Source: Phoronis australis
Taxonomy: Eukaryota; Animalia; Phoronida
Length of the DNA: 64,000 nucleotides
Assembly (NCBI GenBank): GCA_002633005.1
Contig: NMRA01000544.1
Location: forward strand, 168,479 to 232,478
Reading direction: 5' to 3'
The number at the start of each line of letters is the position of its first letter. The first letter of the stretch is position 1. Positions 1 to 64,000 of this stretch are shown in pieces. The notes under the pieces are model-generated. The model did no database searches and was not told the origin of the DNA. It was given only the letters and a program-made list of their open reading frames with translations. The position numbers were made by a program, and so were the translations under genes.

Positions 1-45
1 TGTGCTTTTAACGTTTGATTATTCTGATACTCGTTATTTTTTTAG

Positions 46-3000
46 GCATATGTCCTCCGAAGTTTTACCTTTTCAACCATTCCTGTTATTGTTTCGGTGC
101 GGCATCTGAGTCAGTCTCGTGGCCTATGGCAAAGATAGCTTGCCATCAGAGAGGCGCCAAACTGGTATCCGTGGAAACGAGTGCTGAAAATGATTTTATT
201 ATTCGACACATCAAGTCGTTGTCAGGTCAGTGCTTTCAAAATACTTGGACTGTACTTTCGGTCTTGATATTGCAAAATACAGCTTTTTCTAAAGGCATTT
301 GTTTGTAAGACAACGCTAGCGTGTATTGCTAGGCCTAATAGCCGATAAGAGTTATCTCCACATGTTACCCATGACGTCCTCTTGTAATTTCGGGCATCAA
401 AAACAATGCCAAGAGACTACGGCTTTGGTAACTGGGCTTCATGTTCGTTGCTTCCCTTACTCGGGAATTTCTCAATTTTAAAAAGATTTTCTACACTAAA
501 CTACTTTGAGCGAAACGTCGCTTTCCCATAAACAGGTAGGTGAACGGCAATGATATAAATAGATAGCCAGGCCCGTAGCCGGAAGGAAAAAATTATTGGG
601 AGGGGGGCACAAACCAATTTGACTTCGCCAACCAACCCCATTGCTATCGCCACCTAACTTGCTAACCCCCCTCCCCCACCCGTTCTCTGGATGTCACCAT
701 ATTTATTCCGAGNCCCCCGCCCCACGTCCGCCCGGTGGGAGTATAATACCGGGGATGCAGCCATAAGGATTTGAGTGACCGTGAACCAACAAAGTTTCAC
801 GGAGAGTAAGAATGGGTCTAGTGCCCGCATACTGACGGGTAGCTGGAAGTTGCCTGACTACAGCTGGCCTCCAACAGTGTATTCGCACTCCTCTGCTCTG
901 GGTCGAAGGTCAAGGTTTGTTTTATGATCCAGTTTCGGGAAAACTTCAATTTATTATGCTTAGTTTTTGAAGACTTGGAAAGGTGAAGTCCCGAGGTGAC
1001 TGGTATGAATGCCTTTGTGGCCGTTTCAGAATCCCTAGATGAAACACAGCCGGTAATCCAGTTTCGGGTTGCTGGGGGAAATGATACAGAGTGTGTCCCG
1101 AAAATGAACACACTTCAAAGTCTGGTGTTCAAATTGAGCTCCCGTGGGTAACTTATATTCTACGCAGGCCTACGGCATGGTTACACCTTATTTTAACGTG
1201 GGTGTGCCAGTTACTACGTGTTCCGTGCATGCGCGCACCCAAGGGGGCTTGGGTTGCTAGAACGAGCCCCTCATTTGGAAAAGTGGGCAAAAAGGTACGC
1301 TTCAAAGAAACAAAATGTCCGAGAAAAACGACACAAAAGTCCGCTAAAAAGGTAGAAATTCTACGTATGCATAATTCATAGCCCTGAACGAACCCCATAT
1401 TCCGTTTTTTTTTTCTTTTCTTTAGTAAAAGGTCCGCATCTTCAAAAATGTTAAGCTGGTTGGGGGCATGCCGTGTGTGTAGAATGCACGGAAAATGCAA
1501 GCAATCGATTCAGGTTTGAAGAACAAAAAGTCATTGCTCCATACTACTGGAAATTAAAAACAACGTAGAACTGCAAAGAGAATCTTTAAAGTTGATGACA
1601 AATGAGTTAGATTTTATTTATTTAAGTACTTAAACGTCTTTTTCGATACGTTTGTAAACTTAAACCCAGTAATCTAGTTCCTAAGCCAATAAACAATTTA
1701 TTGTCATTTGAAATGTGACAGGATTTTGGGACACTTTGTAGAGTTGTCCGAAATTCATCAATTTCCTTGAGACTTATTTCAGATAGACAAAAATCGTTTA
1801 GCGTACTTTTACATTTGGGGATCTGATGATAGGTCAAAATTTTCCGGTGTCTGCTTGCAACTAAGTTCATTGAAGCATTCTCATTTCTACAAGATGAGCT
1901 TTTAATTGTCAAAAAAATCATCTGTCAATCGGTTTACTTTCATAGATACATAAACATGTAAATCAGAAACCGACAATCAAATGCATGAGCAATGCGTCTA
2001 CCTTGAGCTAATGACTTAACTCTCTTTTGATCCCCTGTTAGTGAGTTTAAACAATAAAACTTGTACCGAAGTCAAACAGTAATGTATTTATTGTCATGTG
2101 AATTTTAGTAAATTTTTGGGAAGTGTCCGATTTTCACCAATGTCTTTTAGAGTTATTTTAGATAGGCAAAAAGCGTCCAGGTGCACTTTACTAGTTGGGG
2201 ATCTGATAGAGTTTTTTCCATATCAAGGCTTCGACTAAATTCCTTGAATCGTCATCATTTCTTAAAAGATTAGCCTCTAATTGCTAAAAATCATCTATTA
2301 ACCTGTCGGTTTTCGTAGATACATAAGCATGTAAATCAGAAACCAACGAATTTGTTAATCAAAACGGAAATCAGTGTTATAAGCAATATCCGCAGCCATG
2401 CTCGCAGATTTTTGGCGGGTAACCCGGGGAAAATAGGAGATTGGGCATTCATAGTGAGGTGTATTTTTGCACATTACCGAGGTACCTATCACGGTTCAAG
2501 AGTTTAACTTGACCCCCCCCCAAAAAAACGTTGAAATATTTGTTTATTATTGGGAGTATTTGAGTACACTCGTTCACCCCAATTGTAGCCTCGACAGCAG
2601 TGTTTTCCACATGTAGGAATTCCTTACAAACAAATCATAGTAACCATTTTCAAAAGAGATATTATTCTTGTGATATTATGGGAAACAGTAACATTGTTTT
2701 ATAATTACATTATTTTTGGCGATAGTACGATTAGAAAACGGACAAGCTCTCACACTCATTTCACCACATGGATTTGGAATGGTAATACACTTGCTGTCCT
2801 ACTGTACATATCCAGATGATGTCTTAAGAAAAGACGTTGAGTTAGCATGAACTTTTTTATTTGTGTGGCGATTGTCCTTTTTTCTAATTATTCTATAACT
2901 ATATTAATCCTTTTGTGTAATTTACAAATAGGGGTCTTCACGTTCTTCAAAATTTCACCCTTTCGATGGTGGTCAATCCTATTGCATTTTTTCACATTTT

Positions 3001-4671
3001 TGGTTGTTTGGATTGAATGCCTTGATACTGCTGTTGCTGTGCACGAATGTTGGTGTTTTTATGAATTTGGAATCTCAACTTCGCTCGTCGGGAATACTTG
3101 GCAGTGTCCATGGGCTGTGCACCAAAGGGGGCTTTGGGGCTTTAACCCCCCCCCCCCACACACACACACACTTTTTTCAGTGCTGCGCTGCCCATGATGT
3201 CGGATTTACATATATAGAGGGGAAAAAGGGACATTTCCCCGAACTGTTCCACCGATAGAGGGTACCGTCTGAAATAGGACACCTTAATTATGAAAGGATA
3301 AATATCATTAAGCTTGGAAAAGAGTGACAGTTCATTCTACCGTCGTGTGATGACAAGACCGTGCAGGAAGTGACCCTCTTTAACATGAAAGTCAGTTGCA
3401 CGATTTCACAAAAAAGCAGGAAACTAGACGAAATCGAGTCCAACTCTGGGTTTTCTCCGTGAGTGGACCCTTAAGAAAAGGATGGCCACTTGAATGTCAT
3501 CAATGGCCTCCTTCAAGGGTGTGGCCCCTCAATATGAAATTATCAATATTTTGAAAAATCAAGAAATGTGCAGCAATTGATGATATCTGTCAGGGCATCA
3601 AGCGATACACAATTTGAGAAAAATGCTACTGTTGTCTCAGTTATCCTTTGCCAGAGAGGGGCCTCTGGAAAAACATGATTTTGCAGTCGCAAACTTGACT
3701 TATTGAGTTTAAAATCAAGTAAATTAACACGCTCCGCAAAAGATTCGCTTTACAAATTTTTCGATTTTTCGAAATACAATGTATGAATCATTACGTGCCG
3801 GTTTTCAAGTGCGTTTAGACGACCTGTTCTGCGAAAGCGGAGACCCCAACAACAATATCCTGGCAAAGGTCCCCAAAGGTAAACCATGCACTGATACAGA
3901 GTTGTTAAATGTTTCTATTGATTTTTCTCTCTAATCCGCATTTAGCAGTCTTTCTTTTTTCAACTGTCTCCACCCCACGCCTATGTCGGTTGCCACGGTT
4001 GAACCCTGACGCCTGAAAATTTTTTTTGGGGGGCAGTGCCCCCCGGCCCCGCCCACTTCCTACGGCCCTGATAGCTATTTATTTCATTAGGTGAACCGCC
4101 CTTGGTCAAACTGGCCGCGCCACCTGGTGTCTGAAATCATAAGAACAATGGTGTTGCTAAGATTCGGAATCTCCATTCTATTACTGTATACCAGGCCTAT
4201 TACTCGAACAGCAAGTATTACCAACGTTTTGGAAAGATGTCGGCTATACAACAGTACGTCATGATACCTATCTTGATCCCAACAAGTTTACATGAGCACC
4301 GTTTCGCACTGTTTAGATGACTAAACATGAAAAACAAAACACTGAGGTCTGCAAAAACTTCTTTACACAATGCCAATAACCACTGAGGAAACATTCATGT
4401 AGACCTTTTGTTCTTTTCAGATTCTTCAACTTTGTGTTCATTTTGGACAAGTGGTAACAACCATGAGAGCTACTGGGTTTGGGATTCCACTGGACGGGCG
4501 TTCGGTAATTATCGTCCCTGGAGTCCGAAACAACCTGATTCAACAAAAGGCCAATGCATGTTCTACTTTGCAAGTGACTTTTGGAGATGGCATGATCTCC
4601 CCTGTAAATATAATCGGTTTAAAGGTGCAGCCATTACATTTATTTGCGAGAAAGACGCTTTGCCGTTCTAA
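46..4671 (+). CDS. C-type lectin domain protein (perlucin-like), last two coding exons: 46-225 and 4421-4671; 5' exons lie outside the window
   Basis: Exon 46-225 (tttag|...TCAG|gtcagt) encodes CPPKFYLFNHSCYCF...SWPMAKIACHQRGAKLVSVETSAENDFI. It joins in phase 1 to exon 4421-4671 (ttttcag|), encoding FWTSG...WVW...Y.PWSPKQPD...C...W.WHDLPC...FICEK*. The CTLD Cys/Trp pattern, QPD and WND-like WHD motifs are present. Confidence 0.9.
1228..1475 (+). mobile_element. MITE-like dispersed repeat, copy 1 (CATGCGCGCACCC termini)
   Basis: Same body (aaagtgggcaaaaaggt..c.tca.agaaacaaaa) as the reverse-orientation copies at 20612-20901 and 53768-54030. The right end is degenerate. Confidence 0.65.
1690..2360 (+). 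repeat. Diverged direct duplication (~390-bp offset) of a dispersed repeat
   Basis: 1697-1975 aligns with 2087-2348 (tttattgtcat...ttggggatctgat...gtaaatcagaaacc). A reverse-complement copy lies at ~7670-8070. Confidence 0.65.
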
Positions 4672-29222: not shown

Positions 29223-32200
29223 CTGTAGTAACTGCCTTTGCTGAAAAAGACAAATTGATCATGATTTAAGCAGTGGTACCAGACAGCATACACAGAAGTT
29301 ACTTTTTCTTGTCACCGGCTTGGAATAACACAGCACACATCACAAGAAGAAGACTGGTCATCTAGCTGACCAGCAGCAAACCACAAATGGTCTGCCAGGA
29401 GTCGTCACCTGAGTCGCCTATGCAGTCGGCACTTGGGTCAGCAAACTGGTCACCTAGCTCAGATCACTGATTCGGATTATGCATATCCTAAGTTGGCAAT
29501 TACCATATTACAATAGTTTACCTTTGGCTTAACAAACACCTAACGTGAAACAAAGACTGTTACCAATCGGAGGCCTGACCATATTTGAGAACCTAGTTTT
29601 TAGGCTCGTCCTGGGTCCTTTGTCAGGGCACTGGCAGGGATTTCCATGTTATGTGGCCACCTGTGGGCGGTGATTGGCAGATGTCAAACAACACCTGTCA
29701 CATGAGAGGCGCTGGTAATTGGCCAGTAATTCGCAACCACTGTCTCTGTTCAAATCTAGATGCACTCTCGCATTTTGTGGTTCCATTATTTATTTCTCTC
29801 TAGATAATATACTAACTGTGGGTTTACAAAATAATAAACGGTGATCTCCCAGAGTTGTAGTGTTGCCACATGCCAGATGATATAATTATTAAATTGTTCT
29901 TTCCGAGCAGTCTCACCAACAGGACAATCATCACAAACTTCTTTTTGTCATATGACACCTATGTCGGGTAAACTGACACACTCTGTAGGGTGTCGAACAG
30001 TTTGAGATACATATAGGTGTTCTCTGAAAATCTTAATACTTTTTCTGAGCGACCGTGGACGAATAGAAGAGCTATGTAAACTCTAAAAGGTCAACCTCCT
30101 TGGAAGTCATTGGGTCTGGGATGGAGCATCCAGTTAGTGTAGTCATTAGCACATAAAACATCTTTGATTCCAGTCTGTTCCTTATATTTGCCATTTTCAT
30201 CTGTTACTAATTATTCTGTTTAAAAGTGCATGCACCGCTGATATTTTATATTGGTCATGATGGTTGGAGCGAAAAGTAAGGTACATGCAAATGTTATTTG
30301 GTTTCTCGTAGATGATGACCTTGGTACTGCCGTCCACCTCGATACGTATGCAGTGAAGAAACGAAACCTTGTCATTTGATGCGTGCTTGATGGTAAACTT
30401 GATGTAAAGGTCCACAGTGTTGATGTGATCTAAAAATTTGTAAACCTGATATTCCTGGATCTTGACGAAGTTGTCCCCTCCATAGTGGTACCAAAGTAAT
30501 GGGGGATGGTCGGCCATAGCGATGGCACTAGTTTCAAAACTTTTCATGCATACATTAGCGACAATGGCTGTTAAGGGCCAACCCATAGCAGCACTGTGTT
30601 GTTCTTTGTAGTAATTATGTATTTGAAATGGGGCATAAAAACCTGGTATTAAAGCAATTAATTTTTCTGGCTACAAAGCAAACTGCAAACCAACCTGTAT
30701 CAACTGTAGCATTTGTCGTTGAGAGCTGCCTTGCTGTAACTGCTGCTGCTGCTGTTGTTGTTGCTGTTGTTGCTGCTGCTGTTGCTGCTGCAAACGATAC
30801 TGTTGCTGACGAGCTAAAGAACGGGAAAAGTAATCACTGATAAGAACAATTCAGAGGATATAAAGATCTCGTCACACCAAACTGGTTATCAGAACGTCAG
30901 AACCAGTCTTAACGTTTTAATGAAACAGATCAGGGATGGGTGAAACAGGCAATACTTATTAAGCTCCCGGATGTTTTCTTTTCGCTCTCAAGATTGTACA
31001 GAGAACTACCTTAGTGTGGCATATTCTGGCTCCAGCCATCAGCAGGCAGTTGGTTATGTGCATGCCAAAAATACAAAAGTTCCTACTAAGGCATAAATGG
31101 CGATATTTGCGAATGATTCCTACAGGCTGATGACCACAGCTGTTTGTAACAAAGGCAGTGGAATTCCACCTTAATTGTCTACAATCAGTCCACAATACAG
31201 TTCAGTGAACAATCACTTTTTCTCCAAATGCACTGAATGCAGCCAAAACATTTTTGCGCAATAACATCCTTTGTTACTGAGGACTCGATTACAGATGAAT
31301 TGACAAAGAATTCAAGATTTGCAGCTTCTGTCATGACATTCCAGGCGCAACTGCAATGCTATCTGCCTCAGACCAGTGGTATGGGGTATGGACAACCCTA
31401 TCAGTCTATTTTAGCCAGATCATGTTTGTGTAAAATGCAAATGTTCAGATAGCATTGAAAAGCATGGCTGAAACAGATTTCAACTGTTCAATTTCAGTTT
31501 GATTTTGCTTTTTAGCTCAGAGATTCATGGTTCTTTGGTTCATTTGTTTCTCACAAAAGTTAGACAAATCCCAAACTTGCATACAGCCATGGAAATGCCA
31601 CAGTTATATCACTCGCCATCAAATAAAAAATCAACTCAAATTACTACTTAGCAGCATAAAACCCTAGACTGCCTTTTCTATGACACTTGGAACCCAATGG
31701 ATGGAACTACATTACCTTTTGTCCAGTTTAAATTCTCAACCTGCAAAAACTTTTCTTTTTTAAATTCAGTAATTGCGATAACTAACCAATAAATGGGTTT
31801 CAACTCGAACAACTTAAAGCAAAGCCAAAAACAACGCATTAAAATGTCTTAGTGCTATTGAGAAGAAGACAGCTGGAATTTCCAGGAAATTACCAGCAGA
31901 CCAGTGGGACGTACCCAGGACCATGGCGGCTTTCTTTTGTTCCTGTTCTCTCCGTGACGCCTCTCTAGCCTGGGCCAGCTTCAGTTCTTGATTAAGGGCC
32001 TGAACCTAAAAGGAGACGCAGCGGAAAGTGAGTGTAAAGCGGAACGTACGATAAAAACTATCAAATTTGTGAAAAAAAAACAATAATCGCATATTGCTGT
32101 TCGTTAACTTTCAGAGTCTCATTATGTTCCCGCACATGCATAAAAATACACCGATTGCTATTTGATGGCAGTTGCATTGTAACCACGCTAACAACAACGT

Positions 32201-35200
32201 TCAATTTCCTAAAGTTTTTGTTCAGACATTTAACACTGAAAATGAAATTCCACTACTACTCCATATTGTGTCTAAAACTGAACAATGTTAATTACAGAAA
32301 AATAACAATGCTACCTATGTGATTTATCCTAAAACACTGACAATAATTTCAGTGTAACCCCCAGACATCCAGCTGTAAGAAGGTAACATCTCAATTTGCC
32401 AAGGACACAAGTCCGTATCTACTTGTAAGAAGCTAGTACTCCAATTAGCATTAAGCACGATTCTGCTACATGCCATGTCGACATGGCTTTACGCAAGATG
32501 ACCCATCAGTAACAGTACAACTAAAATTAACATTATCAAAACTAAAATAAGAACTGAAACTATGTGCTATACAACTTTGCAACTCTCAAGATTGTGCATA
32601 GCTCTAAACTTTACAAGCAACTCAAAAACATGGTAAAAATTAATGTACAAGCCCTTTATTTGTGTTATAAAGTAAACTCACTTGACTTCCAGTTTGTGCC
32701 AGTCCAGCCATTTGGTTACCAGCCATAGCACCACCAGCAGCCACTTGGCCATCTTGGAATGGCATGCCCTTGAAATAGGAAACACTTTGCTAACTGTCAA
32801 ATGAGCATTAGTAGGATATAACGTGCCCGTATTTTGAGAACCAGTTTGATACCCATTATCCAGTAAAGAAAATTGGTTCTCAAAATGCGGGCACATCGTA
32901 TCCGACCATTACTGTCAAATGCAATGTCACTTGTCGATGCCTCTTTGAAAATTGCACTGAACATAATGCACCAACAACATAAATACACAACATGTCCTTT
33001 CTTATACTGCACTGGTTGGGGGGGGGGGGNAACAGCACTTGAACTGAGGAACTAAAATATCAGGGGGTGGGCGGTTCAGTCAAAGTTACTTTCATGTGAA
33101 CTCATACCTTGGCATCAGGTTTTTCAAGCGATGGATCCCACATTAGTTAATTGAAACATTCAGCACTGCCTAGCCAGTAACAGCATGTAAGTTAAGACAT
33201 TAATACAACCCACAGATGCACAGATGTCCACATGCATGACCCAGGGTGATCTTACGGGGGTAGTAAAAGGAGTATCATTTATTTCAATTTTAGGAAAGTT
33301 CCACGAGAAACACAGAGACAAGCAACAAGTTTTGATTTGTGTATACAGCCATAGTGTCCAGATACAGTGTTGGTTGACGAGTCGGTCAGAACCATTAAGT
33401 GTAGCTAGCAACTACTGAGCCCCTTTTTTCCACGGCCATCCTTAAAATATCCACATTAAATTTGAGTAGATGGAATTGCAAGCCTGTAACCAAATGGGAA
33501 GCTGCAAGATATAGCACAAACAGGTAATTGGCTAAGCTCATAGCTCTAGCTCTCTTTGCTCAGAGCCATAAGGATTTACACTGGACAGGTAAAAGGAATC
33601 CAACAAATAAGACAACCTCCTCTAAAATTAATGCAAAATCCTCACACCTCATTTTGCCATGGGGGTGATATGCGAGTTCGGAGTTCCTCTGCACTCAAGG
33701 TCTATAGAAGCTGGCTGTAGCTTTCATGAATAGCCTACCTGCTGAGAAGGCATGCCCATTGCATTTGGCGGGGGTCCTAGGTTCTGTGCAGGCATGCCCA
33801 TTGTACTCGGTGGGGGTCCCAGGTTCTGCTGCTGTAGCTGCTGCTGCTGCTGCTGCTGTATCTAGAAAAAAGTAGGCTTGTGCAAATAAACATTCACCAC
33901 ACAACTCTGTTATGCTTAGACACACATCTGAATTTTAATTTCATTGTTTCATGAGATAGTGATGACCTGGGGATCTCGTATAAAAGGGATGACCATATCT
34001 TCTCCACTGAAATATAGCCTTATTTTGACTTGTAATTCATCATTTCCTGTTGTCCAAGGCACTTATTTTCCTGGTTGCCCAGCAACTGCAATAGTCAGGA
34101 TTTTGAATGTGCCCAACAGAACACCCCTAATTAAGTTAAGGACAAACCGATGCACAGGTCACATCCTGGCGCCAGCTGATTCTACAACCTTGACAGACGT
34201 GAAGAGCACTCATGTAACTGGTGGTATGAAAGCAATTCAACATGGTGAAATCTCACCAATTTTGGGCAAAAATAAATTGCAAAAATTGACCCTTCTCAAA
34301 AGCTTCTAATATTGTTGCGTAAGCCTCAAAATGTTTAAAATGTTGTATGGCTGGAACTGTGGCACAGAGTTTGAATGTGGGAAAACATACACATCAATGA
34401 AAAAATCAAATCCCCCTCGTCCGCCACATTGCGTCACAAAATGATGAAATTTTACAGTACTTCTAGCACCAGTGGAAATGAAGTAAAATTAAATGTGCCT
34501 ATCATCATTTGCATCAGATCATCAATAAGAAAAACGTCAGAAGCTCCTCGCTAAACAAGGCATGACAACACCTGACCAGTTCAGGTCACACACAGTAAAC
34601 AGTATGGCAAAAAATTTATTTTTTCAAAATCAAAAAATCTAAGAACAAAAAATTGGAGACATAAGTTCGGGTAAATGTGCTATCCAGTAGATTATGAAAA
34701 CACACAGGACAGATATCAAAAGATGTCTAGATGTGCCTCATGCTAGAAATGAAATCACATGTTTCTCAAGAAAACAGGTACCACGGACCATTTTATGAAA
34801 ACAGCCTTATCAGGAAACAATTCAATCTCACTTCACCAAATTATAGGATCTCGGAGCATATATCCACAATTTCATCACAAACATTACAAAAATGAAGTAC
34901 TGACTTGTGAAATTTAATAGTACTTGCTTGACTTTCATTACAGCAAGCACTTACATGTTGTAATTCGGATAAAAATCAAGAAAACAGACAACTTATTCTT
35001 TTAGAATTATTTAGCCACTATGCCGACAATTCTTGACTCCAGTTAGCGACTCCATTTCTAGAAGATACCACAACTGAAGTTGTTTTATCACCAAGCAACT
35101 ACTTAGGAAATGGAAAATCATAAAAACCAACAATTTTGTAAGTACTGCGGATGCAAAAGGTAACGATGAAGATGCAGAAGCTGGGTCGCTTCTCGGCCTT

Positions 35201-38200
35201 TTGGCTAAGTTCAAAGAAAGTATACTTTGAAGAAGCACTGGAAATATGGAGACGCCATATGGAAGAAATGTAATCAAACTTTGTTTGCCTGGAAACTCGA
35301 AACCGTATAATAGAACAATGTTTGCGGAGCCGTTGAAGAAGATGTTTGCTGAATTAGACATCCCATTGACGGAAATTGTTTCATTCGGAAGCCTCACAAG
35401 GAACGATGAATGGTACATGCAACTTAGCACAAAGGTTACAGCACAGCAGTGCCTTCTGAAAGACAGTTTTATTGTGAAGTCATCAAAAAGGCCAGTCACA
35501 GCTCGATTCACCTCAGCTGAAGAGGGCGTAACCACCTGCAGAGTGCGCTGGCTGCCTCCCGGGGTTTCTGGTGCCTCAGTGGCCAAGGCCTTATCTCCTT
35601 TTGGCCAAGTTGTGGCAGTATATGAGGAAAAGTCTTCTGTCCCAGGACTGGAGTTTATGGGCACCATGGTCCGCAGGGTCGTGCTGAGAAACGCCAAAGA
35701 TATACCTCATACCTTCACCGTTGTGGACGCTAACTCACGTAGTTGGCCCATTCTCATCACCATGAAAGGAAGACCACCGTTATGTTTGAAATGCAAACAG
35801 ACTGGACATTTACGAAATAAATGCAAAACTCCCCGCTGCCGTGAGTGTCATGCCTTTGGACACTCGTCTGCTGACTGTGAGTCTAGACGGCCAACATATG
35901 CGTCACAGGTAACGACTCTTGACATAGACGTTGATGACCCGGTGGAGGACCACCCCCCTGAGGCTGCCCACACTTCTGTTGTTCCTGAAACTCAACCTGA
36001 CGTTGTCGAAGATGACATTCCTTCTGCTGCAACGCCAATACCTGACAAGACCCCCATCTTACTTATCGACCTTCCCTCGACTCCGGACATCGCCCTAAAG
36101 AGACCTGCAGTTGGTTCGTCGCACTCAGATGACTCCGATGACTCCTGCTCCTCTTTCATCAATTACAATTACAATTCACCTGGCGAGGGACCAATGTAGC
36201 CTGCCGGTTAGATCGTTTTTACATATCCAATGATATCAGCGACTATAGTGCATCCTTTTTTCCTTGTGCCTTTTCAGACCATGATTTTGTATTTCTTTGT
36301 GTCAGGGTTGCTGCCCCAAAAATCCCACTTATAATTCCTACTGGAAGTGTAACGTTTCGGTTTTAAAATCACCTCTATTCCGTAGCGATCTTATCTCTCT
36401 GTGGTCTCGCCTGGATCGAGCCCCTGTAAAGAGCCCCGAGTGGTGGGACCAGTGCAAGTGTATATTCAAATACCTTATTATTCAACACAGCAGACGTATT
36501 CGCTCTATATTACGTATTAACATAATTGTCTGAGAACGAGTATCATGAAAGGTACTTCATCATTACGATATAACTGGTAAAGGCGCTGCATTGGCATCTG
36601 AGCTGAAATGGAAACTACAATGATCCTTATATAACCTACAAAACGAAGGGGTAAAAATTCGTTCGAGAGCATGCCTCTTGGACTGTAACGAACAACCTTC
36701 TCATAATTTTCTCTTCGCGAGAAGCAAAATGCTCGCAATAAGATAATTCCGTCTCTCACTATTGGTCGGAATTTGGTGACTGATACTGAGGATATCATGA
36801 GTGAAGAGCATAATTATTATAGTACTTTATATTCACGTGAACCTCTGGATGAGGATCTCTGTGAGCAGTGCTGTAGCTGTTAATTGTGGGTTGTTAAGAA
36901 ATGCTTACTCTCAATGCCAATTACCTGCTTCTGCTGTGATTTCGTACATTTTAAAATGAAAACTTTGGCAAAACATGTTAAATTAGAAGACCATAGAAGA
37001 GCAAAAGGACTCTGAACATACCAGAGCCATCTCCGAGAAGCACCAAGACCAAACAGTATATAAGAGTCATAGATTAAGGTTGTTATAGATGGAAGAAACT
37101 GAATTTCTATCACATTCATACATGATGTACTTATTTTTTCTTTGCTTTAATAAAACCATAGATCAACTCTATACTGTCTTAATTGAGCAAGCCCATGACA
37201 TTTCGCATGGTTCCAAAACTATTTTATTATCAAAGACCCTCAATAGGGGGTGCATGAGATGATAAGTTGATAAGAATGTACTTTTAAAGATCAAAGTATG
37301 TGTTCTTTGAATGAAGAAAAATTAGAAACATGCAAACGGCATATGGAAAGTAGTGAGATTGGCGCATGCCTTTCTCAGTCACTCTCACCATTTGGGCAAG
37401 TCATCGGTGTAAAGAGAAGTCTTCCGTTACAGGAAGCTATTTGTTTGAATAATGGTTTGTTGAGTAATTATAAAACAAGCGAGAGAGGTACTGCATACTT
37501 TTTCTATGATTTACAATAAAGAACGTAGCTGGCCGGTCCTGATCACGATGAAAGGGAGGCCCCGCTTTATCTGAACTGTAAGTAGGTTGGGCACCTGAGA
37601 AGCAAATGCAAGACACCCCATTGCTGTGCCTGGCATGGATACGGTCGTTTGACTGGTAAATGGGAACCCTGTAAACATGCGTCACAGTTCAGTCCCCCTA
37701 AGCTTGAGGTGGACAATCTTCCCACTCAGGACAACACCTCCGTAATCTTTGAGACCCCGCTGGATACTGCAGCCGCTGCTTCTACAAAGACCCCAGTGCC
37801 TGCGTATCAGTCTCCTTATTTGGTAAACGGTATTTCATTATGGGACACAGCCTCTTAAACGACCAGCAAACATTTCCACATCTTCCCCTGATGACTGACG
37901 ACTCGTGCGCTTCTTTAATCACCGTTGACAGTCGTCGGCAGAAGTGGAAAGCCAGGGACTCTCTACCTCATTAGCATGGACCATTTCTGCAGAGCTTATT
38001 TTTTCACATTTTCATCCTCGGTACCTTTCACCTCATTCTAGTTTCTTCATTTTTACAATGCATATTTTAATTAAAATTTGCATACCTCAATGTTAATGGT
38101 TGTATGGACCCTACTAAGCGTAATGGTATATTTGCCCATGTCAGGTCACACAATGTGGACATAATGTTTTTGCAAGAGCCTAACAAATGTTTTTTTTGCA

Positions 38201-41200
38201 GTGTGCAGGGTAGTAAAATTTCTTTTATTACTTATTACTCCCATAGGGAGTGGGCCAATCCTGGAGGTACTGCAATACCAGGTCAACCCGTGGCAAAGGT
38301 GGAGCAAGCCCCTAACACTTCGCCCAGTTCCAAAAATCAGTTTAATATCGAAGTCCCCCAATGGGGGACGTATCAGATATTAAGCTGATAAGAACAGATA
38401 CTACACTTTGATCTTAGCCAAAAGGCCGAGAAGCGATATTGAGTGCAGTTTAACAGCTTCATTATATTTAGAGACTGCATACACTACACTGGTGTAGGTA
38501 AGTGTTTGATGCAACAATTCAGATGCTTAGTCAACAAATATCAAATGAACTATTTACCACCATCACCAGGATACAAGCAGATGAAACTGTAAACTAAAAA
38601 CATTATAAAAATCCCGGGCCATCAAGTCAATCAATTAATTTCCAAAAAATTAAAAAAGGCTTGTAGGTCAAGAAACGATGCAGTGACACCTGTTGGGAAA
38701 ATAGAGCACTGACTTCATCAATTAAAGCAGTGCTGTAGCTGTTAATTGTGGGTTGTTAAGATATGCTTACTCTCAATGCCAATTACCTGCTTCTGCTGTG
38801 ACTTTGTGCATTTAAAAATGAAAACTTTGGCAAAACATGTTAAATTAGAAGACCATAGAAGAGCAAAAGAAGGACTCTGAACAAACCAGAGCCATATCCG
38901 AGAAGCACCAAGATCAAACAGTACATCATAACAGTCCTAGATTAAGGTTGTTATAGATGGTAGAAACTGAATTTCTATCACACTCATACATGATGTACTT
39001 ATTTTTTCTTTGCTTTAATAAAACCATAAATCGACTCTATACTGTCTGAATGGAGCAAGCCCATGAATTTTTGCATGGTTCCAAAATTATTTTATTACCA
39101 AAGACCCTCAATAGCGGGTGCATGAGATGATAAGTTGATAAGAATGTACTTTTTAAGATCAAAGTATGTGTTCTTTGAAAGAAGAAAAATTAGAAACATG
39201 CAAACGGCATATGGAAAGAAGTGAGATTGGTGCATGCCTTTCTCAGTCACTCTCACCATTTGGTCAAGTCATTGCTGTAAAGAGAAGTCTTCCGTTACAG
39301 GAAGCTATTTGTTTGAACAATGGTTTGTTGAGTAATTATAAAACAAGCGAGAGAGGTACTGCATACTTTTTCTATGATTTACAATAAAGAACATAGCTGG
39401 CCGGTCCTGATCACGATGAAAGGGAGGCCCCGCTTTGTCTGAACTGTAAGTAGGTTGGGCACATGAGAAGCAAATGCAAGACACCCCATTGCTGTGACTG
39501 GCATGCATACGGCCGTTTGACTGGTAAATGGGAACCCTGTACACATGCGTCACAGTTCAGTCCCCCTAAGCTTGAGGTGGACAATCTTCCCACTCAGGAC
39601 AACACCTCCGTAAACTATGAGACCACGCTGGATACTGCAGTCGCTGCTTCTACAAAGACCCCAGTGCCTGCGTGTCAGTCTCCTTATTTGGTAAACGGAA
39701 TTTCATTATGGAACACAGCCTCTTAAACGACCAGCAAACATTTCCACATCTTCCCCTGATGACTGACGACTCGTGCGCTTCTTTAATCACCATTGACAGT
39801 CGTCGGCAGAAGTGGAAAGCCAGGGACTCTCTACCTCATTAGCATGGACCATTTCTGCAGAGCTTATCTTTTCACATTTTCATCCTCGGTACCTTTCACC
39901 TCATTCTAGTTTCTTTATTTTTACAATGCATAGTTTAATTAAAATTTGCATACCTCAATGTTAATGGTTGTATGGACCCTACTAAGCGTAATGGTAAATT
40001 TGCCCATGTCAGGTCACACAATGTGGACATAATGTTTTTGCAAGAGCCTAACAAAGGTTTTTTTGCAGTGTGCAGGGTAGTAAGATTTCCTTTATTACTT
40101 ATTACTCCCATAGGGAGTGGGCCAATCCTGGAGGTACTGCAATACCAGGTCAACCCGTGGCAAAGGCGGAGCAAGCCCCTAACACTTCGCCCAGTTCCAA
40201 AAATCAGTTTAATATCGAAGTCCCCCAATGGGGGACATATCAGATATTAAGCTGATAAGAACAGATACTACACTTTGATCTTAGCCAAAAGGCCGAGAAG
40301 CGATATTGAGTGCAGTTTAACAGCTTCATTATATTTAGAGACTGCATACACTACACTGGTGTAGGTAAGTGTTTGATGCAACAATTCAGATGCATAGTCA
40401 ACAAATACCAAATGAAGTATTTACCACCATTGCCAAGATACAAGGGGATCAAACTCTAATCTAAAAATTTTAATATAAAACTCTTGGGCCATCAAGTCAA
40501 TCAATTAACTTTTAATTAATTGCAAAGGGCTTGTTAAATGTAGGTCAAGAAACAACGTCCTGACACCTGTTGGGAAGGCCGAGAACTGATTACATGAGTA
40601 AAGGCAATGCTGTAAAGCATCGATGTAGATAACAGAGAACTCATTGTGAGCTTTTTGTGTTTTGTGTGTGTGTCCTGGTTTCACAGAGAATTGTTTTCAG
40701 AGATTATGGATACCCCCTGTGGTTGCTTTGTCACGCCAAACCTTACAGCCTTATGACAATCATTAAACACTTGAAGGATCAGTTCATTCAATATCGTATC
40801 GCTAGGTATATGGTCTTGTTTTATTTAACTAGCTGCTAAAGACACTGCCCAGAAATGTGTGTCGACCGGTAATCACGTTTTATTCAGTTGGCTGCTAAAG
40901 ACTCTCTAGAAATGTTTGATGAAGGGTGGTTTTAATATTGGACCTCTGAAGAGACCTGCAACTACTAGTTAAGATTTCAATTTCACTTCTGACCACCTAT
41001 GTACCAAGTCAGAGACAAAATACTCGTTGAAGAACACAAAACCCTTGACAACAGCGCCGTTTGTTCGACATGCCTCTACCACCAACACTGAGGAGGTGGT
41101 GTGGCTCAGTGGTTTGTACTCCGGACTCCCATTAAGGAGACCCGGGTTTGAATCCTGGCTTTACTGGCAGACAATCAAGCATTGCACGAACGAGTCTCTT

Positions 41201-44200
41201 ACTCCTCTGAGCTCGGTCTTACTAGAGAATGTACGTAAGGGAATGAATGAGAGCCTGGATATGATGCGAAAGCAAATTCTGAGGCTGTGCGCATATAACC
41301 AACCGTGAAATTGATTTGATAACGCACATATGTTATGTAGCGACAACAGACTCAATGCTCTGCACACTAAAGAAGGCCCATATCCTTCATTCTAAGACCT
41401 TCCTCTCATTGAATTACAAATAGTACTTTAACTAAGTTATAACTTTGGCCCTGACTCCCACCGATTTTGTGTTTCCTGTCCAATTTTCATATTGTGACTA
41501 TCAATTCTAGTGTTTGATCTGTCTGCAGTGCGGTGCGATTTTCTCTGATAATGTTTTCGGCAAAGTGACTAAAGAACAGGACTTGTACATAGTATACAGT
41601 AGTAGTGTAAATATTATCATTTGCTTAAGAGCTGGTTTGTTTTATTGACCCAATTGCAAGTAATGGTAATCAGATAATGTTTAAATTTTATATGTTAAAA
41701 ATAGTAAGACATAAATTTGTAGCTTCACGCTTTTACTTTTAAACATTTTTTGACATTCCTTACATTTTCGTGGACTGATGATGGAGCTGTACCTGTGGAT
41801 ATATTGTCTCTCAGTAATCCGTCAATGAATGATGAATGGAAATACCAGCATTTTTCTCCTGCCAACAGCAGTGTAACTGTCACCAAATAGTTTTCAAATT
41901 AACCATAAATGTACGACAGTGATAAGACTAGTGTAAGACGATGAAACAACTACTGACTGCTGAAGGCCTAAACGCAAGTTGATTAAAAGATTCATGACAA
42001 TAACTCTAGGCTCTCAGATAATCAAAATGGCCAGTGACATTTGTCACAGAAAATATCGCAAGGCAATGCGACATTCTACGACGGCATTCAACGCCTGCCG
42101 TACGATGCCTTTCAACCATCACATCACCTTCCCTTGCTTTCTGTTGTATGCCATATCCGTAGGGGGTCAAATCACAACTCTGTATCTAAATTTATGATCA
42201 ACAACACTGACACGTAATCATAGAATTCATCAGTGGTAATCTCTGCCTACACACTCAAGGTACCAGAGAAATAGGAATACGGCAACTCTGGTTCAACCAT
42301 TCTAAATACAAGTGCTTGGAATTATTGCATTGACAATTGTCAGTATACATGATCAGGGACTCGAACCCTTCACCTTGGAAATTTCTTGCCAAAATGAAGG
42401 TTCATAGGTGTAGCAGTTTCCAAAAGAATATTGGTATTACATCTCCTCAGCGCACCAGATTGCTGCAAGTATCGTAGGCAAAAAGCGTGCGCAAAAGAGT
42501 TGATGAGATTTTGACTGTGACCTGAAAAGACTGCCAAAATAGGAACAAAATGTTTCGAAATTTAATGCAAATATTTTTACTGCAAATGGGACATTGTACA
42601 AAAACCAGATTTTGTTCATATCGACATGCATTAAAAATTAGATGTTGATGGAAATGATAAAATCATAGTAATAATTGTAACAACATGCGTACCACAATGT
42701 AAAACACTCAACATGTTGTTATCTGGGGTGGAGCATATTTTAGTAAAAGTATTCAGTTTAAGAGTATCATTCTGGGTTCATTTCTAACTAATCTTACAAC
42801 TCGGATTCCAACTGTCCAGGAGTGAGCACTGCTTTCGCCACTGCATACCAGACAGTCAGTAATTCTAGAGAATGTTTTCCTGTCGTGGTAGAATGCCACC
42901 TGGTTCTTTGTACACTCCCGTTTGCTGGCAACAAAATCTTAAGCCTACCCGCTGGTTAGTCTGAGACTGTTTTTGTCTCATGATCAACTGCATAATCCCA
43001 GTCTTGATAGCATTCTGGTCATTAGGGATCAGGCCAATAAACGCTCGCTTCTTACGACTGAAGGTCAAGATCATGACGGACACCTCACAGCCGGGGATAG
43101 CCTTCCAGGTGATGTAGCCCACCTGTAGGGAAGATGGAAGGATTCGTGAAATATTGTACCTGAAACACGAGTCATGACCAGACCAGACAGGTTACACAAG
43201 GTTGTTCTAAAATGATGCGCTTCAGGCCATGTTAATCACATTGGTTGTGGTTTCACATATTGTTTCTTACCCATGTCACTTTCGAGAATAGACAAGAGGA
43301 CCATTACACCCACTAGCAGCCCTATCAGTTTATTAAATACATAAAATAAAAACATACAGTAATGTAACTTTTGCAAGACAGATTCTGCAGGTGTATTTCA
43401 TCTGTTCACCGCTCAAACCTTAAATTACAAATCAGGTTTCACGTCCCAAGATATGTGTTATCAGACCGGATGTTTACGAGCCGACAACAGTGTTCCTCAG
43501 TGCATTTGAAAAATGACAACGGCAGTACAGATGGAATCCCCTCATTTTACAGCAGTTCAAAAGATGACGTTTTTTTAACCCTGAACACTGCCAAAGGTGG
43601 GTGCACCGAAACACCAACACTCTAGCTGTGCTCACCATCTTTGTCTGGAGTACCAGCCTAAACAGACTTTTGAATGCATCCTGGTCACTATTGTTGAATG
43701 TGAACACGACGGTACGAGCGTCACGAAACTGCTGATGTAGTGGCTGGAGCCAAGCCTGGGGGAGCTGCTGCATGGTTATCTTTTGTGGCCACTTAGACGC
43801 ATTCCTGCGGGGAAAATGGGACAGTAGTTGAAAGGCCTCACTGAGACACTTGATAACATTAAGTACATACCGTGTCCAAATAACAATATTGAATTATGAT
43901 CATTAAAAACAACCATAAAGGGAATTTCCTTTAAACTCACAACCCAAAATCTAAATTACAAACAAGCCTTACTTCAGTCATATTACTCATATCACAATCA
44001 TTTCCATAGAATGATAAAGGAAAAGAATTTAACCCCAGCAAATTCGTGATGCAAGGCAAAAACACTGAAAAATCACCCACCAGACCTTCCAAACTTAGAC
44101 CACGTCATTTGTACATGCACTCTCAGTATCTGGTCATGCTTGAAACCAATTGCTTTCAAAGGTAAGAATGAGTGGCGTCTGATAGTTGATTAGAGAAAAC

Positions 44201-63100: not shown

Positions 63101-63695
63101 ACTAATACTTACAAATTATTTTCACTCACTGAGCATGTCAGTCGTCACTATCATTTTCCCTGCAAAATATTAGAAATAAGTACCACTCTACAAAACTATC
63201 TCAATCATTTGTCTTGTGAAGCAGAAAATTGGCTTTTCAAAGGTGACTTAGGACTTTAAAGATGGCTCAGGGCTTTCCAAACTTTGCTCATTATTTCCAA
63301 ACACGGTGCAAAAATTTTCAAACAGGGTGCAGCACCGTGGTTGATTATATGCAGGGAGATCACTGAAGCGTAAGTGGCCCAAATCCCGAGTTGTTTTGAC
63401 AGAAGTCCCTGGCTTATTGTCCCTTTAAGACATGTGGACTAAAATGGTACATACGTGAACTTACGCAATATCTAGTATATCGAGTGATCACCAATTACCC
63501 ATAGCCCAACTAGTAGAAGATTAAGACAGTATTAATACTGTTGGACTAATCATGCGTTGTTGCCATGTGTCACAGTTAATTGTTCCTCTTGTTATTTCAG
63601 GTTTAGTTAAGCTTGGAATGCACTGCGTGTCAAACAGAAGAGTGGCAGTTAAGATTGTCAACCGAGAAAAGCTAAGCGAGTCTGTTCTAATGAAG
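60114..63695 (+). CDS. BRSK2: BR serine/threonine kinase (BRSK1/2, SAD-1 family), first two coding exons 60114-60183 and 63601-63695; the gene continues beyond the window
   Basis: [24 protein letters not shown]|[31 protein letters not shown] is the characteristic BRSK/SAD N-lobe. The phase-1 intron is GT-AG. Probably a co-ortholog of BRSK1 and BRSK2. Confidence 0.93.
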
Positions 63696-64000
63696 GTAAT
63701 ACGGCCCGTGGATGTGCTGTCCATGAAAAGATGTTTGTTCAGAACCATCGATGCCTCAGGCCTGAATAATTGCCCCATTCCCCTTAATTAAAAAATTCAA
63801 TTGCAATTCTCCACTGGCCAAAAATTCTCATCCAACGGTTAAAAAAATTCACTTCTGTTTGAGACATTGGCAATTATGGGTGGCAATCAAGAGTCGGAGA
63901 GTAGACTTGGTGGTGCCGGGGGAGGGGAAATTTTCCCTCCATCAAAAAGTTCTTCTTTTAGATCCTATAAGTGCCTTTCCACTCAGGTGGTTGAGGGCCT

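What the first reader, a model, noticed from the sequence alone, without database searches (positions are those of the whole stretch)
35186..40602. Intronic U2 snRNA mini-cluster co-amplified with a U2-headed (Keno-like) retrotransposon inside MED25
Seen: MED25 intron 13 holds three related Tx1-type element copies (+), each starting with U2 5' sequence, plus two decayed U2 bodies (-) and two intact-looking U2 genes (-). The last 3.7 kb is a two-unit tandem repeat. Known: Keno (Tx1 clade, APE endonuclease) and Utopia elements insert site-specifically near nt 37-39 of U2. Inference: this is a host-parasite locus where U2 copies are hit by a U2-targeting element and replenished by tandem duplication that also carries the dead element. 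It may represent an undescribed invertebrate Keno-like family.
Basis: partly seen in the sequence, partly recalled or inferred. Interest (0 to 1): 0.88.

Follow-up and report, generated by a model that had tools for sequence, protein, structure and literature searches.

The report
U2-headed LINE relics in U2 array
A small tandem array of two or more intact U2 splicing-RNA genes, in what is likely an intron of MED25, carries broken copies of a jumping gene that begins with the first ~38 bases of U2 and is likely a new invertebrate member of the known U2-targeting Keno kind, so it adds an example rather than a new mechanism.

Summary
Two full U2 genes (Rfam 193 bits) lie on the minus strand in a 1.87-kb tandem unit, between MED25 exons. 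The unit-to-unit junction occurs in 4 of 4 runs laid and is about 5-7 times deeper than its neighbours, so the array is real and probably longer than two units.

There are two LINE insertions, not three: E2 and E3 are one old insertion duplicated. The element (two-knuckle ORF1, APE-type ORF2) starts where U2 likeness stops, at nt 38-40. A second genomic copy shows the same junction, which is the published Keno/Utopia site. Relatives fetched by protein alone carry U2 pieces in 8 of 29 loci.

Against a strict 'hit and replenish' story: E1 has no U2 promoter upstream, no 3' junction survives, relatives also flank U1 and a histone-like start, and no RT tree with Keno could be built. One oddity: a decayed U2 body starting at the Keno cut abuts E2's 5' end in inverted orientation.

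Keno is already known in lancelet and hydra, and this scan noted U2-led Keno elements on other DNA. Verdict: new member of a known kind.

The parts
33862..42948 (-). Predicted MED25 intron (9.1 kb) that holds the cluster; intron number not verified
   Evidence: Pfam Med25 hits on upstream exons; GT after 42949, pyrimidine-AG at 33862, both phase 0; no spliced read examined
35186..35222 (+). U2-derived head of element E1 (U2 nt 2-32 near-perfect, nt 33-35 damaged, nt 36-39 present); no U2 promoter upstream
   Evidence: 30 of 31 identical; upstream 295 nt vs U2 upstream region no better than shuffles, 97 of 200 as good
35246..36199 (+). E1 ORF1, 317 aa open frame with two CCHC-type zinc knuckles; C-terminus cut by a deletion
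   Evidence: 1145 relatives at E<=0.001, 370 at 1e-10; knuckle Cys/His invariant in 28 rows
36161..36168 (.). Deletion junction removing the ORF1 end and about the first 187 residues of ORF2
   Evidence: contig spans it unchanged in X3 (record 12); other contigs and reads leave the window on both sides; fragment positions in a full ORF2
36160..36863 (+). E1 ORF2 remnant (APE C-terminal part and linker, about residues 190-430 of ~1160), frameshifted; RT and 3' end lost
   Evidence: a related contig runs on about 1.3 kb past 36865 (X1 record 3)
36864..38725 (.). Tandem unit 1 (1.86 kb): spacer, decayed U2 body, dead element E2, U2 3' flank, intact U2, upstream region
37152..37282 (-). Decayed U2 body 1, solid from U2 nt 43 to 138, gapped match from nt 36 and to nt 164; starts at about the Keno cut
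37281..38186 (+). Element E2: decayed U2 head, broken ORF1 with an internal deletion of about 300 nt, first ~38 residues of APE; its 5' end abuts the decayed U2 body head to head
   Evidence: E1-E2 alignment score 175 vs shuffle maximum 36.5 of 30; Pfam Exo_endo_phos E 0.009
38245..38437 (-). Intact U2 snRNA gene a
   Evidence: Rfam RF00004 192.7 bits, full model
38438..38537 (-). Upstream 100 nt of U2 gene a, likely promoter (PSE not identified)
   Evidence: 99 of 100 identical between units, against 42 of 50 for the next 50 nt
38726..40614 (.). Tandem unit 2; its last ~200 nt are only ~80% like unit 1 (array edge)
39051..39151 (-). Decayed U2 body 2 (duplicate of body 1)
39149..40053 (+). 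Element E3 (duplicate of E2, 880 of 907 columns identical)
40112..40304 (-). Intact U2 snRNA gene b
   Evidence: Rfam RF00004 193 bits, full model

Best explanation
This is a small tandem array of intact U2 snRNA genes, in a predicted MED25 intron, that carries dead pieces of an APE-type LINE beginning with U2 nt 1-38, likely a Keno-type (Tx1-group) element whose source copies are inferred to sit in U2 genes and to be transcribed from the U2 start. Inferred history: (1) an old copy (E2) landed at or next to the Keno cut of a U2 gene and ended up inverted against the cut U2 body; (2) deletions brought it next to an intact U2 gene with its promoter; (3) this 1.87-kb block was multiplied by unequal crossing-over, so the dead element rides along passively; (4) a younger copy (E1), copied from an RNA that began at U2 +1, inserted beside the array without a U2 promoter, and later deletions removed part of its APE and everything from RT on, fusing it to an array junction.
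For: Shown: two full U2 genes. The tandem junction is present in DNA contigs of 2 samples and RNA reads of 2 others (11 and 8 reads), with contig depth 230 vs 48 for the E1-unit junction in X1 and 152 vs 20-26 in X3. ORF1 and APE fragments match 60-95 of 120 ORF2 proteins of APE-RT(-zf-RVT) type at up to 50-59%. A second, ~84% copy has a loose 5' end that matches U2 nt 20-38 at 18 of 19 and only 3 of the next 11 (compared by eye); this is the site given for Keno/Utopia (PMC4640811 section 6; PMC6136364 passage). E1's head starts at U2 nt 2 with no promoter likeness upstream. Of 29 loci fetched with the ORF1 protein alone, 8 hold U2 pieces: 7 heads before an element and 1 body behind a poly-A tail; 0 in the reversed control. 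The E1-unit junction shares 12 nt with the unit-unit junction, and the array edge is ~80% while the core is 94-99%, as expected of an older, homogenised array.
Against: No 3' end of this family is in hand, so the defining poly-A/U2-body junction was not seen. There is no RT in the window and no Keno reference sequence, so no tree with Keno. The ORF1 tree leaves E1 as an unplaced long branch, not sister to the U2-headed L003. The 8 U2-bearing loci are not independent: 7 belong to one distant one-knuckle family, and only L003 is a two-knuckle relative. Other relatives end in U1 bodies (L005, L030) or follow a histone-like start (L002), so this ORF1 type does not imply U2 specificity. Only one other 5'-complete copy was seen, and whether it has a U2 promoter is unknown. 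Contig depth is not a copy number (tool's caution), and X1 may be the source sample of the window. A U2 head could also be added by template switching.
Confidence: 0.68

Rival explanations
1. U2-headed but not U2-targeting: like crocodile Tx1-11_Crp, the family carries a U2 head fixed once (from an ancestral U2 insertion or a template switch) and now inserts elsewhere; its presence beside U2 genes reflects sequence homology or chance.
For: E1 lacks a U2 promoter and a U2 body on its left. The second copy and E2 appear by eye to share changes against U2 in the head, as an inherited head would. U2-headed Tx1-Mar elements are known (PMC4494074 passage). Relatives use U1 and histone-like targets.
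Against: Two independent insertions lie within 2 kb of U2 genes; the head ends exactly at the Keno cut; and a U2 body that starts at that cut abuts E2.
Confidence: 0.2
2. Active host-parasite cycle: U2 copies here are repeatedly destroyed by the element, and selection replenishes them by tandem duplication.
For: One cut U2 body per unit, intact U2 genes beside it, probable variation in unit number between samples, U2 cassette slightly more conserved than dead DNA.
Against: Only one destroyed U2 gene, which is old (72-77% like U2) and predates the duplication; no fresh insertion in an array U2; conservation difference p=0.065; tandem U2 arrays arise without such elements (recalled).
Confidence: 0.1
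3. Assembly artefact: the two units are the two haplotypes written in tandem.
For: 94% identity between units; the window differs by indels from several contigs in E1.
Against: The unit-end to unit-start junction is present in 4 of 4 runs laid, from 2 studies, and is deeper than single-copy neighbours.
Confidence: 0.02

Closest known systems
Keno (Tx1 clade, APE-type, U2-specific; KenoDr1, Keno-1_SSa, Tx1-5_BF, Tx1-1_HM; Kojima and Fujiwara 2004 not seen, known here through PMC4640811, PMC4494074, PMC6136364)
   Same: APE-type non-LTR element; junction with U2 at nt 37-39 (vertebrate numbering); low copy; in animals including invertebrates.
   Different: 3' junction and RT placement not seen here; E1 carries the U2 head outside a U2 gene; E2 is inverted against the cut U2 body; host probably a mollusc or other protostome (not determined), a group not named for Keno in the passages read.
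U2-headed Tx1-Mar (Tx1-11_Crp) and SINEU of crocodilians (PMC4494074, passages and section 15)
   Same: Tx1-type LINE whose 5' end is U2 sequence and which sits outside U2 genes; that group clusters with Keno.
   Different: Those target a Mariner transposon; here the copies lie beside U2 genes and the head stops at the Keno cut.
Utopia (RLE-type, same U2 site; PMC4640811 section 6)
   Same: Same target site; in Phytophthora found in U2 arrays that mix intact genes, cut bodies and elements.
   Different: Utopia generally has one ORF with a restriction-like endonuclease; this element has a separate ORF1 and an APE.
5'-inverted L1 insertions (twin priming; PMC4245944, PMC2912911 passages)
   Same: An inverted 5' segment of the element joined to the primer-side target DNA.
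   Different: Here the forward 3' segment is absent or only 4-5 A's, the other target half is missing, and the copy is old, so a later inversion or deletion cannot be excluded.

Membership tests
Keno | APE-type endonuclease in ORF2 | tested here: met
   Pfam Exo_endo_phos E 0.009 and 0.03, below cut-off; APE fragments match 60 and 87 of 120 ORF2 relatives
Keno | Separate gag-like ORF1 before ORF2 (Tx1-type layout; recalled) | tested here: met
   317-aa ORF with two knuckles; relatives L001, L002, L004 have ORF1 followed by ORF2
Keno | 5' junction at U2 nt 37-39 | tested here: met
   E1, E2/E3 and the X3 contig all leave U2 at nt 38-40 of this U2, which has one extra A; 3 insertions only
Keno | 3' end followed by U2 from nt 37-39 in the same orientation | tested here: inconclusive
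   no 3' end survives; the body beside E2 starts at nt 36-43 but is inverted; the canonical junction was seen only in distant relative L018
Keno | Most copies sit inside U2 genes | tested here: inconclusive
   E1 has no U2 promoter upstream; genome not held; only one other 5'-complete copy seen
Keno / Tx1 clade | RT phylogeny groups with Keno inside Tx1 | not testable with these tools
   RT absent from the window; none of 120 listed RT relatives of L001 is labelled Keno or Tx1; ORF1 tree unresolved
Utopia | Single ORF with RT and C-terminal restriction-like endonuclease | tested here: not met
   N-terminal APE and separate ORF1
Functional U2 snRNA gene | Full-length fold with branch-point pairing region and Sm site | tested here: met
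   Rfam 193 bits, model 1-192, both copies
Functional U2 snRNA gene | PSE promoter, 3' box, expression | not tested
   only conservation of the upstream 100 nt between units; no reads were laid on the U2 genes

The most novel reading that the evidence does not exclude
A protostome Keno lineage that is launched from the U2 promoter, moves with U2 nt 1-38 as part of its RNA, and left a twin-primed, 5'-inverted insertion at the U2 cut (inverted element, 4-5 A's, U2 body from nt 36-43), a structure described almost only for human L1; the scar is now fixed in every unit of a variable-number U2 array inside MED25.
Probability: 0.2. Interest if true: 0.55.

Novelty: new member of a known kind. Interest (0 to 1): 0.33.

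Why it matters
It likely extends U2-targeting APE LINEs to another invertebrate lineage. It gives a compact fossil record of how such elements and a low-copy snRNA array coexist: a head that starts at U2 +1 without a promoter points to transcription from the U2 start, and an array that amplifies dead element DNA shows hitch-hiking. If the inverted junction came from twin priming, that mechanism is not confined to L1. The locus is also a practical warning: the assembly probably under-counts U2 copies here. None of this is a new kind of system.

Tried and rejected
No genome is held, so no genome-wide copy survey. No RNA holder was listed by the index; raw-read RNA runs of the same species label were laid instead. 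Reads were laid only on 35230-37100, so U2 expression, the MED25 splice joint and the flanks of the U2 heads beyond 30 letters stay open. RNA over the unit is all first-mate-plus (likely minus-strand RNA, library type not on record); this fits MED25 pre-mRNA or U2 read-through equally and is not used as evidence.

A domesticated ORF1 was considered because the frame is open for 317 codons. It is not supported: RNA depth is 0-6 and mostly antisense.

Viral contigs gave 0 loci. Rfam on 14 of the 29 loci gave nothing, though blastn found short heads in 3 of these. Look-ups of earlier findings by place and by sequence were empty.

U2 promoter upstream of E1 and U2 body left of E1: both rejected (97 of 200 and 168 of 500 shuffles as good). 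Utopia and a haplotype artefact: rejected. The host species was not determined; the mollusc guess rests only on two named hits (Sinanodonta; Patella as best hit of one APE fragment).

Literature searches showed no paper on Keno in molluscs. Repbase, the 2004 Keno paper and all supplements were not seen and may list such families.
Full report
1. What is there. Rfam finds two complete U2 genes on the minus strand, 38245-38437 and 40112-40304, at 192.7 and 193 bits. They differ at 2 of 193 nt and carry one A more than the Rfam consensus near nt 30, so positions here run one higher than vertebrate numbering. They sit in a direct repeat, 36864-38737 against 38726-40614, 94% identical. Each unit reads, left to right: spacer; decayed U2 body on minus; decayed U2 head on plus; broken ORF1; the first ~38 residues of an APE endonuclease; then, on minus, 3' flank, intact U2 and upstream region. 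Left of the array lies element E1 on plus: U2 nt 2-32 at 35186-35216 (30 of 31), an open 317-aa ORF1 with two zinc knuckles, and frameshifted ORF2 pieces up to 36863.

2. Host gene. Minus-strand exons hit Med25_VWA (4 exons, 50.4-56.6 kb) and Med25 ACID (3 exons, 42.9-44.7 kb) (14 proteins scanned, 78 of 113 listed frames scanned). Q-rich exons follow at 33.7-33.9, 30.7-30.8 and 29.1-29.2 kb. The donor after 42949 and the acceptor at 33862 are both phase 0, and a scan for Q/P/G/M-rich in-frame exons between them found none. The cluster is therefore very likely intronic and co-oriented with MED25. The number 13 was not verified and no spliced read was examined.

3. The array is real and probably longer. 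Reads and contigs were laid on 35230-37100. At 36864 the letters of the unit's far end join on in DNA contigs of two samples and in RNA reads of two others (11 and 8 reads): 4 of 4 runs, 2 studies. The junction contig has word depth 230 against 48 for the E1-unit junction in X1, and 152 against 20-26 for neighbours in X3. The tool warns that depth is no copy number, and X1 may be the window's own source, but the ratio suggests roughly 3-8 units, or a second locus. Between the two assembled units the core is 94-99% identical and the last 200 nt about 80%. The E1-unit junction shares 12 nt with the unit-unit junction, which suggests units further left were lost with E1's 3' part. Both fit an old array homogenised by unequal exchange (inference). 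The U2 cassette is a little more conserved than the dead DNA (345/351 vs 1273/1322, p=0.065), which is not significant.

4. The element. ORF1 has 1145 relatives at E<=0.001, none close; in a 64-row tree (51 of 61 proteins kept for length, plus 12 loci) it is an unplaced long branch. The five ORF2 fragments, scored separately, match 60-95 of 120 APE-RT(-zf-RVT) proteins at up to 50-59% and map to residues 4-39 (E2) and 191-429 (E1) of a full ORF2. The deletion in E1 is real in another animal, and undeleted relatives exist: contigs leave the window on both sides of 36161|36168, and one runs about 1.3 kb past 36865. E1 and E2 are homologous (score 175 vs shuffle maximum 36.5); E2 and E3 are one insertion duplicated (880 of 907). 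So the window holds two insertions.

5. The U2 junction. A contig of sample X3, 84% like E1 over 58 nt, continues 5' into letters that match U2 nt 20-38 at 18 of 19 and only 3 of the next 11 (compared by eye). E1 and E2/E3 align with it, so the element proper starts after U2 nt 38-40, or 37-39 in vertebrate numbering. Published: Utopia 3' flanks start at nt 39 and are identical to Keno's (PMC4640811 section 6); Keno inserts 37 nt into U2 (PMC6136364 passage). As an independent test, 29 metagenome loci were fetched with the ORF1 protein alone. Eight hold U2 pieces, 7 heads and 1 body behind a poly-A tail, against 0 in reversed sequence. These are two lineages at most, and only L003 (head to nt 53) is a two-knuckle relative. 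Against specificity, L005 and L030 end in U1 bodies and L002 follows a histone-like start.

6. Two odd features. First, E1's head starts at U2 nt 2 but has no likeness to the U2 upstream region (97 of 200 shuffles as good) and no U2 body on its left. The simplest reading is that the head travelled in the element's RNA, which began at the U2 start; template switching is the alternative. U2-headed Tx1 elements are known from crocodiles (PMC4494074 passage). Second, the decayed body begins at U2 nt 36-43, which covers the Keno cut, but abuts E2's 5' end head to head. On the minus strand the order is inverted element, 4-5 A's, body. This resembles a 5'-inverted insertion, reported almost only for human L1 (PMC4245944 passages; PMC2912911 passages). 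The A's can equally be read as part of the U2 head, the forward segment and the other target half are missing, and the copy is old, so a later deletion between inverted U2 copies explains it too.

7. Mechanism and verdict. Most likely a Keno-type LINE bred in U2 genes left two relics at a small intronic U2 array, and the array amplified one relic passively (0.68). A U2-headed but non-targeting family (0.2), an active hit-and-replenish cycle (0.1) and an artefact (0.02) are the rivals. It works like Keno. Membership is likely but not proven, since the 3' junction and RT placement were not testable. Keno is reported from frogs, fish, lancelet and hydra. Six searches listed no paper on a mollusc Keno, and a gastropod LINE survey has no mention of it (PMC11203168 passages), but Repbase, the 2004 paper and supplements were not seen. 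The host taxon was not determined. Earlier notes of this scan describe U2-led Keno elements on other DNA; they are leads, not support. New member of a known kind; interest 0.33.

Noticed in passing
L002:1-170: A two-knuckle ORF1 relative lies just behind a TATA-like box and an ATG reading MSGRG then stop, as at the start of histone H4/H2A (name recalled); possibly a histone-targeting relative.
   Followed up: partly
L005:7806-7940 and L030:7238-7406: Two one-knuckle relatives from different sources are followed by U1 bodies lacking the 5' part, a hint of U1-targeting families.
   Followed up: partly
L003:165-217: U2 head runs to nt 53 before ORF1, about 15 nt past the Keno cut, as a target-site duplication would give.
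   Followed up: no
L018:290-390 and L028:3090-3200: Tandem elements: a poly-A tail followed by a U2 body from nt 36 fused to the next element (L018), or by a short leader and a U2 head (L028).
   Followed up: partly
L030, L031: Animal-type LINE and U1 sequence in contigs of a bacterial MAG, likely host contamination.
   Followed up: no
window:35246-36199: ORF1 is open for 317 codons while the ORF2 remnant has several frameshifts; no sense expression evident.
   Followed up: partly
window:36313-36704: Several indels against contigs and reads, one of 6 nt at 36329 absent from all covering contigs and reads; some may be assembly errors.
   Followed up: no
window:41090-41170: tRNA-like SINE head by eye.
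   Followed up: no
window:12576-24963, 63525-63788, 12-4668: Neighbours: a ubiquitin-specific protease gene on plus (Pfam UCH), a kinase-like exon and C-type-lectin-like exons (by eye); an N near 33030 and an RT-like fragment at 30200-30670 on minus (by eye).
   Followed up: no
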